Below, piece by piece: positions 2,975-56,663 of a DNA stretch of 64,000 nucleotides. The translations under genes and the position numbers were made by a program. The first letter of the stretch is position 1, and each line of letters begins with the position of its first letter. Under the pieces are notes generated by a model. The model did no database searches and had not been told where the DNA came from. It saw only the letters and a list, made by a program, of their open reading frames with translations. The stretch comes from a phage: the NCBI GenBank assembly GCA_025611195.1, contig GCA_025611195.1_4718.1; one strand, 5' to 3'.

Positions 2975-3006
2975 CCCTCCTCCTTCCCTTACGGGTTGGA
3001 GGAGGG
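2975..3006. terminator. conserved two-tier GC hairpin (family copy, inverted orientation)
   Basis: CCCTCCTCC/GGAGGAGGG 9-bp stem enclosing CCC-TTAC-GGG; lies between convergent genes; A10 run at 3021..3030. Confidence 0.45.
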
Positions 3007-3041
3007 TTATGCCGTCAAGCAAAAAAAAAATGATAGTCACG

Positions 3042-15068: not shown

Positions 15069-15494
15069 TCAGATCCCCTCTTTCAGAATCTCATTAAGGC
15101 CGTCAGTAATCCAGTCGAACTTCGTCTTAATCATAGCTGGGGTCAATCCGTATACTTCCCACACAAGCTGTGGTTTATGTGTTCCATCGTCCAAACAAAG
15201 CACATCGATTGAGAGCATCATACCGCCCGTCAGTTTCATGTTCTCACAACTACGAAGATATGCGGATTCTAGCAATACTTTCCCTAACGCGGTGCAAGCA
15301 AACGTTAACCGGGAAGAATACATGTACGATGAAGTTTTACAGTAGGTTGCTGATATCGGTTGAATATGTTTGCGGAGTTTGGCGTCTTCACGTAAAAGCA
15401 GTAACGTGCGATGTAAACGCGTATGCTCGGTAACCGATGGGCTATATTCACCGATACGCTCTTCGACTACTGATTTAGGCCATTTAATTTCCAT
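15069..15494 (-). CDS. small hypothetical protein (MEIK- N-terminus)
   Basis: ATG with GAGGAAG upstream; abuts neighbouring genes. Confidence 0.45.
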   Translation of the reverse strand: MEIKWPKSVVEERIGEYSPSVTEHTRLHRTLLLLREDAKLRKHIQPISATYCKTSSYMYSSRLTFACTALGKVLLESAYLRSCENMKLTGGMMLSIDVLCLDDGTHKPQLVWEVYGLTPAMIKTKFDWITDGLNEILKEGI

Positions 15495-15509
15495 GTTATC
15501 TTCCTCGTA

Positions 15510-15953
15510 TTAACACTGTGTTCCATTCGATAAGCGGGTGGTATCAAAACGATCCAGTTGGTGTACAATGCTATCAGCAACACGATGCAAATAGTGTATT
15601 TTGTCCATTCGTGAAATCGCAGAAATCGTCCAGCAAGCCTCTGACGTCCAATAGGTGCCGTCTTCACTAAGGCTAACGTTATAAACTAACTTCGTCATCA
15701 CATTTCTCGCCTTATGCTCAGCAGACCAGAATATGTTTTCTAACACATCCTTCCCCGTTTGTGAAAACACGAACCCAAGCTTCACGTCGAAGTCGGATGC
15801 TTCAAGATTAACGCAGTGAAGATGATTCTCTAACGGCGCAAAAGAGGCTAAACGTTCCAGCGCATGTTGCAGTGTGGGATGATCGAGCTTTTCGAGATCA
15901 TCCACAGGTTGTTCAGGTACAATCGCGATCGATTTACAGAATTTAATTTCCAT
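15510..15953 (-). CDS. small hypothetical protein (MEIK- N-terminus, possible paralog of 15069..15494)
   Basis: ATG with AGAGGA upstream; same N-terminal MEIK start and similar length to neighbour. Confidence 0.45.
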   Translation of the reverse strand: MEIKFCKSIAIVPEQPVDDLEKLDHPTLQHALERLASFAPLENHLHCVNLEASDFDVKLGFVFSQTGKDVLENIFWSAEHKARNVMTKLVYNVSLSEDGTYWTSEACWTISAISRMDKIHYLHRVADSIVHQLDRFDTTRLSNGTQC

Positions 15954-16550: not shown

Positions 16551-16826
16551 TTACACGGCTTTACAGCTTGCGTAAACCACAACTGTTCCGTTGTTGATTG
16601 CCTCAACAACATCCTGGGTCAGTTTGGTCGCGAGTTTATTATCCGCACTCGGTACGTAATAACCTTCCCCTGTTTCAGTGACTAGGCGATAACGTACTAA
16701 TCCTACCGCACGCTCGACGCGTATCACCTTTTCAAGTTTGTATTTGATGATCTTCGTCAGGCTGACGGCGTCTGATGCGTAGATTGCTTTATAAACCTTG
16801 TTCTTTGCTGTCGGTTTCATCAACAT
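16551..16826 (-). CDS. small hypothetical protein
   Basis: ORF 16551..16889 trimmed to ATG 16826 (AAGGA upstream) to avoid overlap with the upstream gene. Confidence 0.4.
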   Translation of the reverse strand: MLMKPTAKNKVYKAIYASDAVSLTKIIKYKLEKVIRVERAVGLVRYRLVTETGEGYYVPSADNKLATKLTQDVVEAINNGTVVVYASCKAV

Positions 16827-16848
16827 GGTTTCTGTTTTCCTTGGTTTA

Positions 16849-17682
16849 TCACGATGCCAGGTCAGCGATATCCCAATGGGTATAACCAACCTCGCGGATG
16901 AGCTCTGCTGTTTCTTCGAACAGTGGGGTAGGGCTAATGACCGGTAACCATTTCCCCTCTCGGGTTATCTTGACTTCGACGGTCTGTAAGTTCGTGTTCC
17001 AACGAACATCATAAACCAGCGCATAGCCAAGAGGATGAACAAGTCCATCTTGGTTAAATGTCTCCAAAAGACCTCGTACGTCTTCTTCGTAGGATGTTTT
17101 CGACAAGACAGCACGTACTCGTCGCAGTCTCTTCGTGATAACCTTTCCCAGCTCGATGCTCTCCCAGCCTGTCATGACGCAAGGATTGTCATCACGACGA
17201 AGAGACCGAGAAATATAAATAGAATCGCTCGCGGTAAGGTGTACCCACCCAAGATCGCAGTATGCGACAGGTCGTGGTGATTCTCCTTCGATAACCGTCG
17301 GTTCATCCAACATCGCCACAACACCGCAGTCTGCGAACTCCGGCGATACTTCATCCAGCATCTTAATACGGCTTTCTTGGCCGGTATGGTCAGGATCAAC
17401 ATGCGCGTAGTAGTAATTAGGCTCTATCGCACGGTATTGCGCAATACGTCTACGGAAGTCAGGATCCTGCATTCCCAGCGGATGGTAATACGCAAGCTGT
17501 TGCTTTATACCATCCTTGATTACCAACAGAAGATCTTCGCGATCTGATGCGGGATCTTCCACCACGATGTATTTAACAATCGCTTTCAGGTTCTTAACGA
17601 TGTTATCCGGAAGTTTCTCGATATCTCGAGCATCGTAGACGCGGTTAACTACAGTGCTTACAAGGTGTTTTGATAGGCTCAT
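16849..17682 (-). CDS. hypothetical protein, paralog of 18039..18821
   Basis: C-terminal VHPLGYALVYDVRWNTNLQTVEVKITREGKWLPVISP aligns with VHPLGFAWVSEVRYNPRKKRVEAKVLNERWLPVVQP of the other gene. Confidence 0.5.
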   Translation of the reverse strand: MSLSKHLVSTVVNRVYDARDIEKLPDNIVKNLKAIVKYIVVEDPASDREDLLLVIKDGIKQQLAYYHPLGMQDPDFRRRIAQYRAIEPNYYYAHVDPDHTGQESRIKMLDEVSPEFADCGVVAMLDEPTVIEGESPRPVAYCDLGWVHLTASDSIYISRSLRRDDNPCVMTGWESIELGKVITKRLRRVRAVLSKTSYEEDVRGLLETFNQDGLVHPLGYALVYDVRWNTNLQTVEVKITREGKWLPVISPTPLFEETAELIREVGYTHWDIADLAS

Positions 17683-17751
17683 CGATGATCTCTCTTTGTT
17701 ATTTCTACCGATAACTCGGCATAAGGGGACAATGATGTCCCCATGTTCATG

Positions 17752-18042
17752 TTAACTCCCTCTGTGGCATGAAAACAGAGCGTCTAATTGCTCCCGTTGT
17801 TCTTTTAAGTATGCGGGAAGCTGGTCTTCCCGTACCGTTCCGATTTCCAACGTGATGTACCAGCGTTGTTCGGAAGCCTGCCATTGAAAACTGCTCTGTA
17901 ACCTCAGGATGTTGGGATCGTGTACCATGCTTGCGCTGTAACGGTTGAACCAATTCAGGTATTCTGCTTTCCCTTCCTCGTCGGCAACGTAACGCTGCAC
18001 GCTGTTCTTCCCTTTGTTCTCGTATCCTGTTGCACGTATCAT
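17752..18042 (-). CDS. small hypothetical protein
   Basis: ORF 17752..18096 trimmed to ATG 18042 (AGGAG upstream, ATGA overlap with upstream stop); an alternative frame 17747..18091 is also open. Confidence 0.4.
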   Translation of the reverse strand: MIRATGYENKGKNSVQRYVADEEGKAEYLNWFNRYSASMVHDPNILRLQSSFQWQASEQRWYITLEIGTVREDQLPAYLKEQREQLDALFSCHRGS

Positions 18043-18821
18043 GCGAACGTTTCTCCTGTAACGTGTTGTGGGCGTTGTAGCATGGTAGCATCCCATTGTA
18101 CGATCCGGCTCCGGCTTACCCGCATCATGATGGATTCATCGTCAAGCCCTGGTTGCACAACCGGTAACCAACGTTCGTTAAGCACCTTCGCTTCAACCCG
18201 TTTCTTGCGTGGGTTGTAACGCACCTCGCTAACCCAAGCGAATCCAAGCGGATGGACCACCCGTGGATAATACATGCGAAGCAATTGATGCATCCGATCC
18301 AGTACCTCCAGGTCAGCATCGGTCAGGTATGGTTTCACCATGGTAAGCTTTTTGGTGTAATACGTTCCGGTGGTATGATTGATCCAACCAGGAAGCACGT
18401 GATGGAACCCTACCTGTAATGGCGTATCCCCGTTCACCTTCAACCAACCGTATCGCCCTGTCGCACGTCCCTCATCGTAAGCAACTTGTGCAAGCTGATC
18501 GATGAACGCACGATCGGTGATCTCGATGCGTTCCACCCGTTCATCCAACGCACCGCGTACCACGAATCCGCTCGCGCTCATCCGCGCAGGATGCTGGCTG
18601 CGATGCGCGTACCAATTCTTGTTGCCGGTAAGCAGGTAAGGGTACGTGTGAGCACCCCGCCAAACAACCGTTCCGTTCGTCCCATCAACACAGTGTACAT
18701 ACATCCCATCTTGACCGTTGTTGTAGCATGCTACCTTCACGCATTCGTTTTGAACATCGCTCGGTAACGCCAGGTATTCACCTTCGGTAAACATGGTATC
18801 AAAAATGATTTCGTCGTTCAT
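18039..18821 (-). CDS. hypothetical protein, paralog of 16849..17682
   Basis: ATG 18821 with AGAGGA upstream; first gene downstream of the AT-rich region. Confidence 0.5.
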   Translation of the reverse strand: MNDEIIFDTMFTEGEYLALPSDVQNECVKVACYNNGQDGMYVHCVDGTNGTVVWRGAHTYPYLLTGNKNWYAHRSQHPARMSASGFVVRGALDERVERIEITDRAFIDQLAQVAYDEGRATGRYGWLKVNGDTPLQVGFHHVLPGWINHTTGTYYTKKLTMVKPYLTDADLEVLDRMHQLLRMYYPRVVHPLGFAWVSEVRYNPRKKRVEAKVLNERWLPVVQPGLDDESIMMRVSRSRIVQWDATMLQRPQHVTGETFA

Positions 18822-18911
18822 CTAAAAAAGATCCTCTGTTTTTCACGTTAATTAAACAACGTATTGATTTCTATTTAACGCAATACGAACATTGTACGTA
18901 TGCATCATGAA

Positions 18912-18929
18912 GGTAATATAGTCGTGAAA
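18912..18929 (-). promoter_or_regulatory. conserved TATATTAC-containing motif (candidate phage promoter)
   Basis: Plus-strand GGTAATATAGTCGTGAAA; about 90 nt upstream of the first gene of the small-gene cluster (ATG 18821). Confidence 0.45.
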
Positions 18930-19031
18930 GGATTTGCATTAAAGCAAGGGTTTTGTTTTAAGAAGGGATGGATTTAGAAGAGGTGTTTCAAGGAAGGTAA
19001 ACGAGGATAGGTATTTTGATTTAAGTAAGAT

Positions 19032-19396
19032 GTTATCTGTATTTGTTAAAAGTGTATTGTCTATGTTATCTTGTTTATCTTAGGTTATGTCTTATTGTTT
19101 AATCGTTTTATCTTTGTAGGTTAAATTGTTCTAGTTATCTTGTTGTATAAAGTAATTCAATAAGCTTATCTTCAAAATGATAAATAACTTGTGTTTATTG
19201 TACATGCTAATCAAAAAACCATTTGTGATACTCTTCTTCACGTTGTTCATCAGAGTATCTCGTCTATACTCATTGCATTCGTATACGACATAACCGTTAT
19301 ACGCTAACGCTACGCTTATAGCTTGATAACTCTAAGGATAAAAACATAAACTCGCTTCGCTCGTTTAGTTTTTCTTTTTCTTAGAGTTATCTTGTT
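19032..19396. repeat. iteron-like direct repeats (GTTATCTTGTT) in AT-rich non-coding region
   Basis: Exact 11-mer at 19065..19075, 19134..19144 and 19386..19396, plus at least four degenerate TTATCTT copies at 19032..19180. Confidence 0.5.
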
Positions 19397-19557
19397 GCTC
19401 GTCTCTAAAGGACTTCGCTCCTCCCCCGTCCCCCGAAGGGGCCGAGGTCGTGGAAATTTTACTTTCCAAATACATTTACAACATCTGTAAACTTTTACTC
19501 CAGGTACTTAATCTTATCATTAGAAATTATAAAGAGAAGAATAAACACAAACATAAA

Positions 19558-19589
19558 CCTTCCTCCAACCCAACAGGGAAGGAGGAAGG
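19558..19589 (-). terminator. conserved two-tier GC hairpin (family copy)
   Basis: CCTTCCTCC/GGAGGAAGG stem, loop AACCCAACAGGGAA; directly after stop of 19603..20496. Confidence 0.45.
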
Positions 19590-19602
19590 GGATTAATTAA
19601 AA

Positions 19603-20496
19603 TTATTCGGAAACGTTGTAACCGAATACCGCTTTACCGTAGGTGTGAGTACCGTCAGCTAATGACAGCACCAACACGTGGTTGTACGTAGCGTTAACGC
19701 CTTTATCGGTGGAATCGGTGGTAGCACCGTTATAGACGAAAGTAGCCGTTTGCAGATTGGCTTTCAGCTCGGTGATGATCTCGTCGCCCACACCCGTCTG
19801 CTCTTTGATCAGCGTGGTCAGGTTACCTGCCAGGCTTTCATCGATCTTGGTTTCGTTACTGGTAATCGCCTGTAAACCTGCGGTGTAGGTACTGAAGTCT
19901 AACGGATAGGTTAACAGACGCGCTGAGGTCTTGGTGCCATCGCCTTCATCAACGTAGGTTAAGTTACCCAGGTTGGTAACCTTGATGATGTTGGACAGAT
20001 CCAGCGTGGTGTTATAAACCTTAACTTGAACAGAACCGTACCAAGCCAGCGAATCTTCTTTGGCTTTCAGGGTGATCGTCTGGATACCATGATCGTCGAA
20101 GGTAACCGGCGTAGCTAACGTATCGGCTTTGATGTCTTTCGCTTTATCCAGGAACTTCTCACCGGAAGGTGTGATCATACCGTAGCGTTGAGCTACAAGG
20201 TCAACCACATCACCGATGGTGGTGTTTTTATTAACGTTAACGCGTACGGCGATCTTCTGGAACCACTTAGCCAGATCCAGACGATGATAGGTAACATCGC
20301 GGTCATTGAAGTAAGGAGTACCTTCACCAGGGCTAAGCGTTAAAGTTGCATCTGGAGCAGAATCGCTTTTGGATTTAAGAACGTATTTAAGGTCGGTGGG
20401 TTTGAAGTTGGCACCCGTATCGGCGTTGAGTGTGTTAATCTCATCAACGATAAGTTGCCAAGGTGTTTTTAAAGTAAGTGATACTTGAGCTGTCAT
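19603..20496 (-). CDS. putative virion structural protein (YxRxDL / LAW[TY]GSV paralog family)
   Basis: Motifs YHRLDLAKWF and SLAWYGSVQVKVY shared with 20643, 31567, 33389 and 34251 genes; fairly host-adapted codons; GAGGAAG SD. Confidence 0.55.
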   Translation of the reverse strand: MTAQVSLTLKTPWQLIVDEINTLNADTGANFKPTDLKYVLKSKSDSAPDATLTLSPGEGTPYFNDRDVTYHRLDLAKWFQKIAVRVNVNKNTTIGDVVDLVAQRYGMITPSGEKFLDKAKDIKADTLATPVTFDDHGIQTITLKAKEDSLAWYGSVQVKVYNTTLDLSNIIKVTNLGNLTYVDEGDGTKTSARLLTYPLDFSTYTAGLQAITSNETKIDESLAGNLTTLIKEQTGVGDEIITELKANLQTATFVYNGATTDSTDKGVNATYNHVLVLSLADGTHTYGKAVFGYNVSE

Positions 20497-20533: not shown

Positions 20534-20547
20534 TGTAAACGTTTACA
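20534..20547. promoter_or_regulatory. perfect 14-bp palindrome TGTAAACGTTTACA
   Basis: Centred in the 146-bp divergent region between two codon-optimised structural genes (19603..20496 and 20643..21185), flanked by TATATA runs. Confidence 0.35.
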
Positions 20548-20642
20548 GAAATTAATATATCTTTATATATAAAATGTAAATACTATGGAGAACGACTCCG
20601 ACTCTCCTTTTCGACCATCAAAAAATCAGAGGATACATAATC

Positions 20643-31515: not shown

Positions 31516-31525
31516 ACAAACATAA

Positions 31526-31557
31526 CCCTCCTCCAACCCATCAGGGAAGGAGGAGGG
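31526..31557. terminator. conserved two-tier GC hairpin (family copy)
   Basis: CCCTCCTCC/GGAGGAGGG stem, loop AACCCATCAGGGAA; between convergent genes. Confidence 0.45.
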
Positions 31558-49441: not shown

Positions 49442-49590
49442 TGAAAGTATCCTTTACAGAATTAACTTATATAAGTCGGTCGATAGACCATAGCGTACAC
49501 GCGTGCATGCGCCACTATAGTATCAGTAAACACTTACCGTTATTGAGGTTGTGATACAACACTAAAAATGCCGCATAACTTTTCCCTACG

Positions 49591-50211
49591 TCACAAACGA
49601 CGCAGGCGATAATGGATGGAACGATTGGTGCAATATGAACGGAACAGCGGCAATTGCGCAACTTCCGCAAGACTCATATTAATTCGCAGATGTTCAATAA
49701 CGGCGCTGTAGTTATCAGCAATACGATCGCTCAATAACTCTTCTGCCAATAAAGGAAGACAATCGACAACAATCGCGATCACATCCTCATTAACATAACG
49801 CACCCGAACACTCAACGGACGTTTGTCTGGGCTGTAAGTTGGATCCGCCAAACGACGTTCAATATCACGCGGATAGCTCGTCAGTAAATGGTAATAACCA
49901 TTGTCATAACGATTGATGTACTCACACAGCACATCAACATTCTTCTCCGACGGCAAACCTGTTTCGTCATAGTGATACGCAAACATACCACCAAGTAGGT
50001 TGTTAAGATGTACCGCAGGGTTCGCTTGTTCGTGTTCTTTCGTGATGAAGAAAGGCACGTTTTGGGCTGCGAAATAAAAACCTACATCATTGGGCGATAG
50101 TATGCCGAAAAGACTTTTAGGATCCAACAGCACCTGTAAGTCATCACGCGCATTTCGAATAATCGCGTGTTCTACCCAATTCGGAACGACGAGATATCGG
50201 AGTTCCTTCAT
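49591..50211 (-). CDS. hypothetical protein
   Basis: 206-aa ORF immediately upstream of the capsid gene promoter region. Confidence 0.5.
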   Translation of the reverse strand: MKELRYLVVPNWVEHAIIRNARDDLQVLLDPKSLFGILSPNDVGFYFAAQNVPFFITKEHEQANPAVHLNNLLGGMFAYHYDETGLPSEKNVDVLCEYINRYDNGYYHLLTSYPRDIERRLADPTYSPDKRPLSVRVRYVNEDVIAIVVDCLPLLAEELLSDRIADNYSAVIEHLRINMSLAEVAQLPLFRSYCTNRSIHYRLRRL

Positions 50212-51887: not shown

Positions 51888-51919
51888 CCCTCCTCCAACC
51901 CGTAAGGGAAGGAGGAGGG
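51888..51919. terminator. conserved two-tier GC hairpin (family copy)
   Basis: CCCTCCTCC/GGAGGAGGG stem, loop AACCCGTAAGGGAA; A10 run at 51866..51875; between convergent genes. Confidence 0.45.
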
Positions 51920-54371: not shown

Positions 54372-55145
54372 TTAATCAGGATCGGCGTAGAAATGGTGAG
54401 GATAGCCGGAGTACGATCCTGCGTTACCGGCTATGGATTCTTTCTGGGAATCGACGACGAGCGCATAGAACTGTCGGGAATTTGTTAGCGTTGAGAAATA
54501 AGCGGAAAGGACTTTTTCATTCAATGCATCACAAGGTAGGCAGGTGCGACCGCAAAACGTCACGATACGGCCGTCAGGATAGATCTCACGAATCATTCTC
54601 CACTCACCGATATCCACTGGTGATGGCGCTGCTACACCACCTGTTATCGTTAAGTAACGATCGTACGTGGTATGGCATTCAGGATGAATATAGATCGGCT
54701 TGTTCGTTTCGACAGGTTCCGAAGTATCTCGACGACTAAGAAGCTCAACGACTTCAAGATAAATCGTTGGTAGATCGCGGAGAATACCGGTGCTACGACG
54801 TTTCTTTGTGATTCGCGGACGAATCTCGTTGAGAGCGTATTCGAGCTTACGTTCAGCTTCGTACGCATCGAGTTTTATCAAGCGACCCGGTTCATCGGAA
54901 TGATCCTGAGTTACGTAAACGAAATACGTGTCGCCTTTTGCAGCGTGAAAGATTCGAGCGACCTTAAATGTTTCTACGGTACGATAACCAAGGCGCGATT
55001 GATTTTCCACAGGAGAAAATATCCAATGCCGTCCTTCGTCAGCCTCAACAATTTCGTTGAAACTATCTGTCTGTTCTGGGACCTGGTAGTCAGCCAGTAA
55101 TGTGTCGAGAGCATCATCAGCCAGTTTGATGTAAATATCTGTCAT
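54372..55145 (-). CDS. hypothetical protein, paralog of 53384..54286
   Basis: ATG 55145 with GAGGA upstream; preceded by the TATATTAC-type motif and a palindrome. Confidence 0.5.
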   Translation of the reverse strand: MTDIYIKLADDALDTLLADYQVPEQTDSFNEIVEADEGRHWIFSPVENQSRLGYRTVETFKVARIFHAAKGDTYFVYVTQDHSDEPGRLIKLDAYEAERKLEYALNEIRPRITKKRRSTGILRDLPTIYLEVVELLSRRDTSEPVETNKPIYIHPECHTTYDRYLTITGGVAAPSPVDIGEWRMIREIYPDGRIVTFCGRTCLPCDALNEKVLSAYFSTLTNSRQFYALVVDSQKESIAGNAGSYSGYPHHFYADPD

Positions 55146-55201
55146 GTTTGTATCCTCGGTTATTAAGAGAAATTTACAGTGATAACAGTAAGCGTTGTTA
55201 T

Positions 55202-55225
55202 CACCTAGGTAATATAGTCGCGAAA
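55202..55225 (-). promoter_or_regulatory. conserved TATATTAC-containing motif (candidate promoter) overlapped by a palindrome
   Basis: Plus-strand CACCTAGGTAATATAGTCGCGAAA; about 57 nt upstream of ATG 55145; inverted repeat GTGATAACA-N8-TGTTATCAC at 55179..55204. Confidence 0.45.
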
Positions 55226-55259
55226 TAAACTGGAGTAATGCGCTTAAGACAGCATAAAC

Positions 55260-55291
55260 CCCTCTCCCAACCCGTCAGGGAAGGGAGAGGG
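55260..55291 (-). terminator. conserved two-tier GC hairpin (family copy)
   Basis: CCCTCTCCC/GGGAGAGGG stem, loop AACCCGTCAGGGAA; immediately after stop of 55296..56663. Confidence 0.45.
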
Positions 55292-55295
55292 AATA

Positions 55296-56663
55296 TTAAA
55301 CGGTTGGACGAACGGTATTGTCTTTTTCTGGTGCGATCCATAACGTGACCGTACCATGGCATGTCCACTGTGGTTCACGTACAGAAGAACCCGCCATCGT
55401 TACAGCGCAATCGGTACGCATGATGACCCCATATGCTTCGCAGAGGTTGTTATCCTGCATCCACACAACTTTAGCGGGCATACCGGGATACAACAGATCC
55501 ATGTTTGCGTATTCCCACACCAACTGCATTGTTCTACCGCGTAATCCAGCAGTATTGCTTATTTCACGCCATCGGTTATCGGTTACGCGTCCCATCCCTT
55601 TCGCCACCTTCACGTTATCGCTACGCTCTTCAGTTACGTACTCGCTAACGTTTACGGTACGACTGATTATGGTATCGCCCCCCTTTGATAATGTCATCCC
55701 CTGACTCATCTGACTTGCCGAAACAAAACGCCCACCCGCATTACCTAACAACGAAGCCGCGTTATTGACGTCGCTTACCGACGCCCCTCTCGTACATGCA
55801 ATTTCCACGTATTTGTCGCGATTGATCCAGGTCTTGTCCATACCCGGAAACATATCGGCAGGATAGTTGTAAAAGATAGCTGTACGTCGACCGTCAGAGA
55901 AACGGGTTTCGTCGTATAAGGGGTAGATATACAGATACGGGGATTGATAATAACAACCGACATCTGCTGAATAAATACCAACCTGGTTCTGGATTTTATC
56001 TACGAGATCCATCGCATTGGTACCGTGTGGAAGAATAAGCAACTTGAATGGGTTGTCGTTATTCGGTGCAACGATATCCACACCCTGCATTTTGAATCCG
56101 GTGTCAGCTTCAACCGCAGAAAGTATCTTGCTGAATTCAAGGCGCAACACATCCAGCACTTTCGATCCAGTATAGTTCTCACCGGTTTCTGATTGCATGA
56201 AGCTTTCAAGAACAGGATCGAACAGTTGAAATTGAAGATCGACCATTTGTTCGTAGTCTTTCTTCGAAGAATCGGTTGCGGTACGTTCGTCGGTAGCAGA
56301 CATACGACTGTCTACGGTTGTTAAACAGACCGCCCGGTAGACATAAGCCTGTGCGGCATCGTCTACGGTTTGGCGTTGTCCGCGCATCAGGCTGTACGCC
56401 TGCACGATGATGCGCATTTTAAGTTGTTGTTGGTACGGTAGAATGTATTTTCCGTAACTGCCTGGTGGAAACTTTACAGAGATATAAAGTTCATCCCCTG
56501 CGTTACGTTCATAGTCTCGATACGTGTGGACTTGAGTCACTAAAGGAACAGACACCGTCATTGACGGCGTGATTAATTCCGCGGTGACTTTATACGCAAC
56601 AGCAACAGCTTCCTGCGCAAACGTACCGATATACCGTCCTAACGGCGTCTGTTTGTAATCCAT
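55296..56663 (-). CDS. putative virion protein
   Basis: 455-aa ORF in a tightly overlapping run of long minus-strand genes near the capsid gene. Confidence 0.55.
   Translation of the reverse strand: MDYKQTPLGRYIGTFAQEAVAVAYKVTAELITPSMTVSVPLVTQVHTYRDYERNAGDELYISVKFPPGSYGKYILPYQQQLKMRIIVQAYSLMRGQRQTVDDAAQAYVYRAVCLTTVDSRMSATDERTATDSSKKDYEQMVDLQFQLFDPVLESFMQSETGENYTGSKVLDVLRLEFSKILSAVEADTGFKMQGVDIVAPNNDNPFKLLILPHGTNAMDLVDKIQNQVGIYSADVGCYYQSPYLYIYPLYDETRFSDGRRTAIFYNYPADMFPGMDKTWINRDKYVEIACTRGASVSDVNNAASLLGNAGGRFVSASQMSQGMTLSKGGDTIISRTVNVSEYVTEERSDNVKVAKGMGRVTDNRWREISNTAGLRGRTMQLVWEYANMDLLYPGMPAKVVWMQDNNLCEAYGVIMRTDCAVTMAGSSVREPQWTCHGTVTLWIAPEKDNTVRPTV

What the first reader, a model, noticed from the sequence alone, without database searches (positions are those of the whole stretch)
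18822..19602. 780-bp AT-rich gene-free region with GTTATCTTGTT iterons
This is the longest non-coding stretch in the window. It contains three exact copies of GTTATCTTGTT and at least four degenerate TTATCTT copies in the same orientation within about 330 bp, a purine-rich tract at 18961-19010, a TATATTAC-type promoter at 18912 and two GC hairpins at its far edge. It separates the tail-structural block from a run of nine small genes. Direct repeats of this kind are typical of replication origins (iterons) or arrays of regulator-binding sites; the half-site GTTATC also appears in the palindrome at 55179-55204.
Basis: seen in the sequence. Interest (0 to 1): 0.65.

Follow-up and report, generated by a model that had tools for sequence, protein, structure and literature searches.

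The report
Conserved structured RNA gene beside repeats
The long gene-free gap in this Goslar-like nucleus-forming jumbo phage most likely holds an unannotated, almost invariant ~255-290-nt structured non-coding RNA unit, followed by a fast-evolving A-rich repeat tract and an early promoter; a classical iteron replication origin is less likely.

Summary
The 781-bp gap (18822-19602) is the longest in the window. The AAGATAA(C) repeats are far above chance, and such a cluster occurs only once in the 237-kb Goslar genome.

The repeat tract is the least conserved part of the gap. Across 16-18 Goslar-like genomes, copy number (3-7), spacing and flanks all vary. The third "exact" copy is a window-specific substitution.

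The notable feature is a ~290-nt core (19504-19212, minus strand). It has 7% variable columns, against 49% and 73% in the flanking genes. It folds into about 10 hairpins, and the variation fits RNA from the minus strand: compensatory changes, and 93 G·U cells versus 2 A·C.

The core starts with GTAAAAGTTTACAGA, a motif otherwise found upstream of the major capsid and gp023 genes here, and of chmA in Goslar. It ends at a U-run.

There is no Rfam hit, no tRNA and no conserved ORF.

Best reading: a new phage-polymerase-transcribed ncRNA unit, then an A-rich spacer, a pyrimidine tract and a phiKZ-type early promoter for the small-gene operon. A transcription-primed origin remains a live rival. Expression has not been tested.

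The parts
19558..19589 (-). Terminator hairpin of the gp022 homologue (CCTTCCTCCTTCCC-TGTT-GGGTTGGAGGAAGG), followed by a TTTATG tail at 19557-19552. It belongs to a hairpin family repeated in the genome.
   Evidence: Other copies lie at 31516, 2978-3008 and 51891. Pair 9-37 shows a compensatory U-A to C-G change. In Goslar about 35 intergenic hairpins are followed by TTATGC.
19505..19551 (-). U-rich variable spacer between the terminator and the core.
   Evidence: 46% variable columns and 78% mean pairwise identity in 16 genomes.
19484..19498 (-). Promoter-like motif GTAAAAGTTTACAGA at the 5' end of the conserved core. It is a candidate non-virion RNA polymerase (middle/late type) promoter.
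   Evidence: GTAARWGTTTACWGA matches 3 times in the window against 0.04 expected. The other two matches are upstream of gp023 (20535-20549, +) and upstream of the major capsid gene (49523-49537, -). In Goslar it also lies upstream of chmA as a 16-nt exact match. The phiKZ middle promoter is described as TACT preceded by an A-rich repeat, centred at -22.
19212..19504 (-). Near-invariant structured core (~293 nt). It holds hairpins H5-H14, including a cUUCGg tetraloop hairpin (19447-19424), a 65-nt long hairpin (19390-19326), GNA-triloop mini-hairpins and a U-run at 19217-19212. If the -22 rule holds, the predicted RNA body runs ~19467 to 19212.
   Evidence: 19 of 280 columns vary and mean identity is 97.5%, against 82% and 68% in the flanking coding sequences. 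There are 97 pairs with 99.6% of cells paired, and compensatory series at 322-328 and 323-327. G·U cells number 93 against 2 A·C, and the consensus energy is -78.6 (minus) versus -60.8 (plus) kcal/mol. The core is single-copy.
19016..19211 (-). A-rich, G-poor, fast-evolving tract with AAGATAA(C) repeats at 19172-19166, 19141-19135, 19114-19108, 19081-19075 and 19072-19066, plus AGATAAC at 19038-19032.
   Evidence: Composition is A 47%, G 9%. 90% of columns vary. It is the only such cluster in Goslar.
18955..19015 (-). Conserved pyrimidine-rich tract (purine-rich on the plus strand) upstream of the early promoter.
   Evidence: It is nearly invariant among the closer relatives. Mean identity over all genomes is 78%.
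18912..18929 (-). Early (virion RNA polymerase) promoter TTTCACGACTATATTACC of the gp021-to-gp014 small-gene operon.
   Evidence: There are three TATATTAC sites in the window, all on the minus strand, sharing the extended consensus. They match the phiKZ/201phi2-1 early promoter.
18822..18911 (-). 5' leader of the gp021 homologue, with a hairpin at 18903-18880, the conserved AATCAATACGTTG, and a Shine-Dalgarno AGAGGA at 18837-18832.
   Evidence: Leader hairpins are a general feature of the early transcripts.

Best explanation
The gap is a composite of several elements. Its key element is an unannotated transcription unit for a structured non-coding RNA, specific to Goslar-like chimalliviruses.

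Reading the minus strand:
1. The late gp022 message ends at a hairpin terminator.
2. About 55 nt later comes a promoter-like motif (GTAAAAGTTTACAGA), the same word that precedes the capsid, gp023 and chmA genes.
3. This motif would direct the phage's own non-virion RNA polymerase to make an RNA of about 255 nt (up to ~340 nt if it starts at the TATG after the terminator, or by read-through).
4. The RNA folds into a series of stable hairpins and ends at a U-run.

Nearly every base of the RNA is fixed, loops included. It therefore probably works as a protein-binding scaffold or decoy RNA, or a similarly constrained RNA, rather than as a simple antisense regulator.

Downstream lie an A-rich, G-poor spacer that keeps several AAGATAA words but otherwise evolves freely, a pyrimidine tract, and the phiKZ-type early promoter and leader of the small-gene operon.

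Shown: conservation, foldability, strand bias of the substitutions, motif sharing, single-copy status and absence of coding potential. Inferred: that the RNA is transcribed, where it starts and ends, and what it does.
For: Conservation:
- In 16 genomes the core has 7% variable columns and 97.5% identity. The adjacent gp022 3' end has 49% variable columns and 82% identity. The gp021 5' end has 73% and 68% (alignments).
- Every Goslar-like genome sampled keeps an 800-950-nt gap here.
- A relative with 51% gp022 identity has only terminator, TTATGCCG and early promoter at this junction. The element is therefore a clade-specific insertion of about 640 nt.

Structure:
- The fold z-score is -5.5.
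- RNAalifold gives 97 pairs with 99.6% of cells paired, against 40-52% when the partners are slid.
- The H13 apex shows a stepwise compensatory series: AU/UA, then AU/CG, GU/CG and GC/CG.
- In H7 a C-G/U·G pair swaps to U·G/C-G.
- G·U cells number 93 against 2 A·C. The plus-strand consensus fold is 18 kcal/mol weaker.
- A cUUCGg tetraloop exists only on the minus strand.

Promoter-like motif and ends:
- The promoter-like motif matches 3 times against 0.04 expected, and each match points towards its downstream unit. It resembles the phiKZ middle promoter description.
- Conservation stops exactly at the U-run.

No alternative identity:
- No ORF survives the indels and substitutions.
- There is no Rfam or tRNA match.
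- The core is single-copy.
Against: - No expression data were available. The transcription start, the 3' end and even transcription itself are inferred.
- Covariation is thin because the element hardly varies. Only 4 pairs have double changes, one of them in the terminator, and 144 of 500 shuffles reach that pair count.
- The structure was derived from these same sequences.
- If transcription starts at ~19467, helices H3 and H5 lie outside the RNA, and their apparent G·U-tolerant variation would be coincidental.
- Invariance of loops and linkers is unusual for a purely structural RNA. It fits a DNA-level constraint or a recent sweep equally well.
- The U-run is 8 nt from the last hairpin, so it is not a canonical intrinsic terminator (one search found none).
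- Both strands fold with similar z-scores.
Confidence: 0.5

Rival explanations
1. Replication origin. One version is iteron-type. The more plausible version is transcription-primed, like the T7 primary origin, T4 oriF/oriG or ColE1 RNA II. In that version a phage promoter makes a structured RNA whose 3' end runs into an easily melted AT-rich region and primes DNA synthesis.
For: - This is the only unexplained long non-coding region in Goslar. The other long gap is a group I intron.
- The repeat cluster occurs once in 237 kb.
- GC is 24% immediately downstream of the conserved unit, in the direction of transcription.
- Promoter, structured RNA, then AT-rich tract mirrors primer-type origins.
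- Conservation of loops as well as stems would fit combined DNA and RNA constraints.
- The RNA carries a G-run, GGGGGACGGGGGAGG.
- The phage encodes an RNase H and its own DNA polymerase and helicase.
Against: - Iterons in the classical sense are not met. The unit is 7-11 nt, spacing is irregular, and number and spacing are not conserved.
- There are no DnaA boxes.
- No initiator was recognised. gp021 is an orphan and its model has pLDDT 52.
- GC skew is uninformative.
- The element is absent at this junction in the 51% relative.
- RNA copied from the tract would be A-rich, giving rA:dT hybrids, which are poor for R-loops.
Confidence: 0.2
2. Purely regulatory DNA. It would act as a buffer or insulator between a strong late gene and the early operon, with AAGATAA words as binding sites for a phage or host DNA-binding protein that modulates the early promoter (an operator or UP-like array).
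For: - The repeats, all in one orientation, and the pyrimidine tract lie within about 300 nt upstream of the early promoter.
- GATAAC-containing palindromes occur just downstream of some early promoters.
- The region contains several hairpins and two T-runs that could stop read-through.
Against: - Other early promoters in the window and in Goslar have no such upstream array. The standard junction is only ~110-150 nt.
- An insulator or operator array does not explain 290 nt of near-invariance with compensatory and G·U-tolerant changes.
- The repeat tract itself is poorly conserved.
Confidence: 0.12
3. The conserved block has no function of its own. It is identical across genomes because of a recent recombinational sweep or hitch-hiking in a mosaic phage population, or it is a decaying remnant of former genes.
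For: - Window and Goslar share other perfect runs of 120-400 nt in coding DNA.
- Character states in the core are mosaic between lineages (L025, L014), showing recombination inside it.
- Hairpin loops have flipped by DNA inversion.
Against: - Low diversity holds across 16 genomes from different samples whose flanks differ by 18-32%. Neutral DNA under recombination should be as diverse as its flanks.
- The few substitutions that occur preserve pairing.
- The block carries a promoter-like motif shared with highly expressed genes.
Confidence: 0.08
4. Packaging (pac) recognition site for the terminase. The repeated words would serve as terminase-binding sites, as in lambda cosB, SPP1 pacL or P1 pac.
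For: It is a unique, single-copy repeat cluster in a headful-type genome, next to a conserved non-coding block.
Against: - There is no evidence of termini here, and no small terminase is known for this group.
- The terminase gene is about 175 kb away in Goslar.
- The repeat organisation is not conserved.
- The strand-specific RNA-type substitution pattern is not explained.
Confidence: 0.05

Closest known systems
Phage-encoded stable structured ncRNAs (for example the T4 stable RNAs C and D, or the large phage-associated RNAs GOLLD and ROOL)
   Same: It is a conserved, multi-hairpin, non-coding unit of a few hundred nucleotides in a lytic phage genome. It appears to have its own promoter and a 3' U-run. 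No target is evident from complementarity.
   Different: There is no sequence or structure match to any Rfam family, and it is not next to tRNA genes. It is restricted to Goslar-like chimalliviruses. The comparison with T4, GOLLD and ROOL rests on general knowledge, not on a test here.
Transcription-primed origins (ColE1 RNA II, T7 primary origin, T4 oriF/oriG)
   Same: The order of parts matches: promoter, then structured or G-run-containing transcript, then an AT-rich, easily melted tract downstream. The locus is single-copy, and the phage supplies its own RNA polymerase and RNase H.
   Different: No origin activity has been shown. The AT-rich tract would give A-rich RNA and weak hybrids. 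There is no sequence similarity to those origins. The resemblance is architectural only.
Iteron-type origins (lambda ori, P1, R6K, pSC101) and centromere-like repeat arrays (parC, tubC)
   Same: There are same-orientation direct repeats in an AT-rich non-coding region next to a promoter and a gene of unknown function.
   Different: The unit is only 7-11 nt, against 17-22 nt in those systems. Spacing is irregular at 9-33 nt. Copy number and spacing are not conserved among close relatives. There is no recognisable Rep or adaptor gene and no DnaA boxes.
phiKZ-family early (TATATTAC) and middle (A-rich + TACT) promoters
   Same: TTTCACGACTATATTACC at 18929-18912 fits the published early consensus. 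GTAAAAGTTTACAGA fits the verbal description of the middle motif, and in the window it also sits upstream of the capsid gene and gp023 (and, in Goslar, of chmA).
   Different: The middle/late assignment in Goslar-like phages is inferred from motif sharing only. No start sites have been mapped for these genes.

Membership tests
Iteron-type replication origin | Array of at least 3-4 direct repeats of about 17-22 bp with regular, helically phased spacing, conserved among relatives | tested here: not met
   The motif is 7-11 nt. Spacing in the window is 31, 27, 33, 9 and 33 nt. Relatives carry 3-7 copies with different spacing. 90% of columns in the tract vary.
Iteron-type replication origin | Adjacent AT-rich unwinding region | tested here: met
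   GC is 0.24-0.31 at 18900-19300. A+T is 76% in the tract.
Iteron-type replication origin | Cognate initiator gene or host-factor sites (DnaA boxes, IHF) | tested here: not met
   No DnaA box even with 1 mismatch. The only exact IHF consensus lies in the gp021 leader. The neighbouring proteins have no Pfam or PHROG hit. The gp021 model has pLDDT 52 and is uninterpretable.
Iteron-type replication origin | Origin activity (marker-frequency peak, initiation of DNA synthesis) | not testable with these tools
   Only GC skew could be computed, and it is dominated by gene orientation.
Transcription-primed origin (T7, T4 oriF/G, ColE1 type) | Promoter followed downstream by an AT-rich or unwinding element | tested here: inconclusive
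   A promoter-like motif at 19498-19484 is followed by the core and then the AT-rich tract, all in the same direction. The promoter is inferred, not mapped.
Transcription-primed origin (T7, T4 oriF/G, ColE1 type) | Persistent RNA-DNA hybrid used as primer | not testable with these tools
   Needs DRIP or nascent-strand mapping.
Structured non-coding RNA gene | Sequence conserved above neighbouring coding DNA, without a conserved ORF | tested here: met
   7% of columns vary, against 49% and 73% in the flanks. Candidate ORFs are broken by indels or non-conservative changes.
Structured non-coding RNA gene | Secondary structure supported by compensatory and G·U-tolerant changes on one strand | tested here: inconclusive
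   99.6% of cells are paired. 4 pairs have double changes. G·U cells number 93 against 2 A·C, and the minus strand is 18 kcal/mol better. There are few variable sites, and the structure was derived from the same alignment.
Structured non-coding RNA gene | Own promoter and terminator, and a detectable transcript | not testable with these tools
   A promoter-like motif and a U-run at the conservation boundary are present. No RNA data were accessible.
Any Rfam family or tRNA/tmRNA | Covariance-model or ARAGORN match | tested here: not met
   There are 0 hits at gathering score. The best sub-threshold E-values are 0.6-9. No tRNA or tmRNA was found.
phiKZ-type early (virion RNA polymerase) promoter | TATATTAC core with a T-rich upstream extension, in front of an early operon | tested here: met
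   TTTCACGACTATATTACC at 18929-18912 is one of three co-oriented copies. It matches the published consensus table. Activity was not tested.

The most novel reading that the evidence does not exclude
The locus is the replication origin of a nucleus-forming jumbo phage and works through a dedicated, highly structured primer RNA. A non-virion-polymerase promoter would make a ~255-nt RNA that, as ColE1 RNA II does, must fold precisely to hand its 3' end to the adjacent AT-rich repeat tract. This would explain why stems, loops and linkers are all frozen. No origin has been defined for any chimallivirus.
Probability: 0.15. Interest if true: 0.85.

Novelty: new member of a known kind. Interest (0 to 1): 0.6.

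Why it matters
Nucleus-forming jumbo phages are heavily studied for their cell biology, but their non-coding elements are almost unknown. phiKZ work has reported only antisense RNAs and one unconfirmed small RNA, and my searches turned up no defined replication origin or packaging site for this family.

This locus is a precisely delimited, single-copy element that is far better conserved than the genes around it. It lies in Goslar, the E. coli model chimallivirus, at Goslar 15432-15723. It can be tested directly with existing RNA-seq time courses and with Cas13, antisense-oligomer or CRISPRi-ART tools.

Whichever reading holds (scaffold or decoy RNA, primer RNA of an origin, or cis element), it would add a new functional RNA or DNA element to the chimallivirus life cycle.

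The shared GTAARWGTTTACWGA and hairpin-TTATGC words also give candidate non-virion RNA polymerase signals for this genus.

Tried and rejected
- **Rfam and tRNA:** Rfam at gathering score and at permissive E-values gave nothing credible, and no tRNA or tmRNA was found.
- **Sigma-70 promoter and intrinsic terminator scan:** at or below chance.
- **Similarity searches:** cultured phages hold only Goslar. GTDB genomes gave no exact core match. E. coli genomes gave no match to the core, so there is no long host mimicry or complementarity. One metagenome hit (L017) was a 28-nt chance match in a high-GC organism.
- **GC skew:** in both the window and the whole Goslar genome the net trend follows gene orientation, with no usable inflection at the locus.
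- **A-tract helical phasing in the repeat tract:** absent.
- **DnaA and IHF sites:** none relevant.
- **Neighbouring proteins:** the gp021 homologue and the small genes have no Pfam or PHROG hit. An AlphaFold model of gp021 from a 20-sequence alignment reached pLDDT 51.7, so no fold search was run.
- **Coding potential:** the 36-aa ORF at 19475-19365 and the shorter ORFs are either upstream of the predicted start, broken by 1-nt deletions in 4 genomes, or changed non-conservatively.
- **Other classes considered and dropped:** CRISPR-repeat-like (anti-CRISPR RNA), ToxI-like, retron and Hfq/CsrA-sponge readings. By eye there is no repeat-hairpin-handle match, no partner gene and no contiguous motif.
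- **Literature:** no paper found describes this region. The supplementary tables of the Goslar RNA-seq paper were not held.
- **Second long gap in Goslar (82470-83288):** checked as a possible sister element. It is a group I intron.

Full report
**Context**

[quoted passage not shown] It is about 90-95% identical to Escherichia phage vB_EcoM_Goslar over the aligned 64 kb. Genes around the finding are on the minus strand. The gap 18822-19602 lies between the stop of the homologue of Goslar gp022 and the start of the gp021 homologue. gp022 is a DUF7941 virion structural protein (19603-20496). gp021 (18039-18821) is the first of a run of small orphan genes. Goslar has an unannotated 854-bp gap at the same place.

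**Checking the observation**

- The gap is the longest by crude gene calling, and GC drops to 0.24-0.33.
- GTTATCTTGTT occurs three times exactly, only here.
- TTATCTT occurs six times here, all on one strand.
- Against dinucleotide shuffles of the local AT-rich sequence, AAGATAA occurs 6 times against 0.25 expected, and the 11-mer 3 times against 0.001 (0 of 5000 shuffles each).
- In the whole 237-kb Goslar genome, the only cluster of three or more AAGATAA within 300 nt is at this locus.

**Comparative data**

I collected 18 versions of the locus. They are the window, Goslar, two IMG/VR contigs, six metagenome contigs that share a 22-mer of the core (a seventh hit was truncated and an eighth was a chance match), and contigs fetched through gp022 homologues of 77-98% identity.
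- Every Goslar-like genome keeps an 800-950-nt gene-free gap here.
- A more distant relative (51% gp022 identity) has only terminator hairpin, TTATGCCG, about 20 nt, then the early promoter.
- The same compact junction occurs elsewhere in the window, at 55300-55140.
- The gap therefore represents about 640 nt inserted into a standard junction in the Goslar-like clade.

**Segment-by-segment conservation (16 genomes)**

| Segment | Variable columns | Mean identity |
|---|---|---|
| gp022, last 450 nt | 49% | 82% |
| gp021, first 300 nt | 73% | 68% |
| Spacer after the terminator | 46% | 78% |
| Core (280 nt) | 7% | 97.5% |
| A-rich repeat tract | 90% (many indels) | 58.5% |
| Pyrimidine tract | 59% | 78% |
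| Promoter plus leader | 82% | 60% |

An almost invariant block sits next to them. Relatives carry 3-7 AAGATAA words with varying spacing and flanks. The third "exact" 11-mer at 19386-19396 is inside the core. At the position where the window has A, most genomes have G and one group has T.

**The core as a structured element**

On the minus strand the core and terminator fold with a z-score of -5.5. RNAalifold on 15 distinct sequences gives 97 pairs in 14 helices, with 99.6% of cells paired. Sliding the partners drops this to 40-52%.

Variation is scarce but informative.
- The H13 apex passes through AU/UA, AU/CG, GU/CG and GC/CG. In one lineage it ends as a GCGAAGC mini-hairpin.
- H7 swaps C-G/U·G for U·G/C-G.
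- H5 shows U-A changing to U·G.
- The terminator shows U-A changing to C-G.
- Over the whole structure there are 93 G·U cells against 2 A·C.
- The plus strand's own consensus fold is 18 kcal/mol weaker, and mean single-sequence energies are -85 (minus) versus -70 (plus) kcal/mol.
- A cUUCGg tetraloop exists only on the minus strand.

These points favour a single-stranded minus-sense molecule, most simply RNA.

Several caveats apply.
- Only four pairs have double changes, and shuffles often reach that count.
- The structure was derived from this alignment.
- Three pairs are broken in a few sequences.
- A competing fold exists for 19320-19262.

**Signals at the ends of the core**

The 5' end of the core carries GTAAAAGTTTACAGA (19498-19484).
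- The degenerate word GTAARWGTTTACWGA occurs three times in the window against 0.04 expected. The other two copies are upstream of gp023 and upstream of the major capsid gene, each pointing towards its downstream unit.
- In Goslar a 16-nt exact copy lies about 190 nt upstream of chmA, the nuclear shell gene.
- The phiKZ middle promoter is described as a TACT motif preceded by an A-rich repeat, centred 22 nt upstream of the start.
- Applying that spacing puts a G start at TATG for chmA, at CATG for the capsid gene, and at about 19467 in the core, which is the first base of hairpin H6 (counted by hand on the sequences). This step is inference.

At the 3' end, conservation stops exactly at GGTTTTTT (19219-19212). 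A transcript of about 255 nt is therefore predicted. It would be longer if it starts at the TATG that follows the terminator (phiKZ late consensus TATG) or arises by read-through.

**What the core is not**

- There are no Rfam or tRNA hits.
- It has no similarity to E. coli DNA.
- There is no second copy in the window or in Goslar.
- No ORF survives the 1-nt deletions and clustered substitutions seen in relatives.

**The rest of the gap**

- The A-rich tract is strongly strand-asymmetric. In the window it is A 47%, T 29%, C 15%, G 9% on the minus strand, and relatives are similar.
- It shows no A-tract phasing and no DnaA boxes.
- The pyrimidine tract is well conserved among the closer relatives.
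- TTTCACGACTATATTACC is one of three co-oriented copies of a phiKZ/201phi2-1-type early promoter in the window. It is followed by a leader hairpin and a Shine-Dalgarno sequence.
Other early leaders use unrelated hairpins, so the link is weak.

**Interpretation**

The best-supported reading (confidence about 0.5) is a new clade-specific structured ncRNA unit transcribed from the minus strand by the phage's non-virion polymerase. The invariance of loops suggests extensive protein or tertiary contacts. The repeat tract, pyrimidine tract and early promoter are separate downstream modules.

Classical iterons are not supported.

Other rivals are an insulator or operator array (0.12), a functionless swept or remnant segment (0.08) and a pac site (0.05). 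None of these explains the strand-specific, pairing-preserving substitutions as well.

Expression, the ends of the RNA and its function remain untested. I found no paper describing the element.

Noticed in passing
window 19558-19589, 31516-31554, 2978-3008, 51891-51916, 55290-55255; Goslar genome-wide: A family of GC-rich hairpins (CCTYCCTCC..GGAGGRAGG and others) is followed immediately by (T)TTATGC(C/T)G, at about 35 intergenic sites in Goslar. TTTATGC and TATGCCG are the most enriched words upstream of genes after the early promoter. Because the phiKZ late promoter is TATG at -3 to +1, this may be a composite terminator plus non-virion-polymerase start, or a polymerase-specific terminator tail.
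   Followed up: partly
window 19484-19498 (-), 20535-20549 (+), 49523-49537 (-); Goslar 173084-173099 (-), 176760-176775 (+): GTAARWGTTTACWGA lies upstream of the major capsid gene and gp023 in the window, and upstream of chmA in Goslar. It is a candidate middle/late promoter of Goslar-like phages. One Goslar copy points antisense into gp243.
   Followed up: partly
window 16800-17780: There is a ~900-bp insertion relative to Goslar carrying an ORF of 277 aa (16849-17682, minus). It has no Pfam or PHROG match. The small-gene block is mosaic between relatives.
   Followed up: partly
L025 (ERZ19210725 contig), same locus: Two hairpins have flipped interiors relative to the other genomes: TTCCC..GGGTT became AACCC..GGGAA in the terminator, and GTGAAGAC became GTCTTCAC in an AACGTTTTG stem-loop. 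This indicates DNA inversions at palindromes.
   Followed up: no
window 55140-55300 (-); Goslar 49738 and 86711; L012/L014 gp021 leaders: Early transcripts begin with stable 5' hairpins a few nucleotides after TATATTACC. Several are built from GATAACA/TGTTATC or GATAAGA/TCTTATC arms. They could be operators or RNA-stabilising 5' stem-loops.
   Followed up: partly
window 18857-18869 (-): AATCAATACGTTG in the gp021 leader is invariant in all relatives and matches the IHF consensus WATCAANNNNTTR exactly. Its significance is unknown.
   Followed up: no
Goslar NC_048170 82405-82923 (+): The other long unannotated gap in Goslar, after the HNH/NUMOD1 gene gp069 next to the split DNA polymerase, matches the group I intron model (E 1.8e-9, just below gathering score).
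   Followed up: yes
window 49442-50166 and 348-962: Crude ORF-based gene calling leaves two further gaps of 725 and 615 nt. The first contains the capsid-gene promoter-like motif and probably a gene with a non-ATG/GTG start (the Goslar gp042 region). Neither was examined.
   Followed up: no
L012, L013, L023 (same locus): One lineage has gained extra GCGAAGC mini-hairpin words in the core, giving up to three exact copies plus one GCGAAGT. This happened through a clustered 7-nt replacement and a T-to-A change, and suggests selection for GNA-triloop hairpins.
   Followed up: partly
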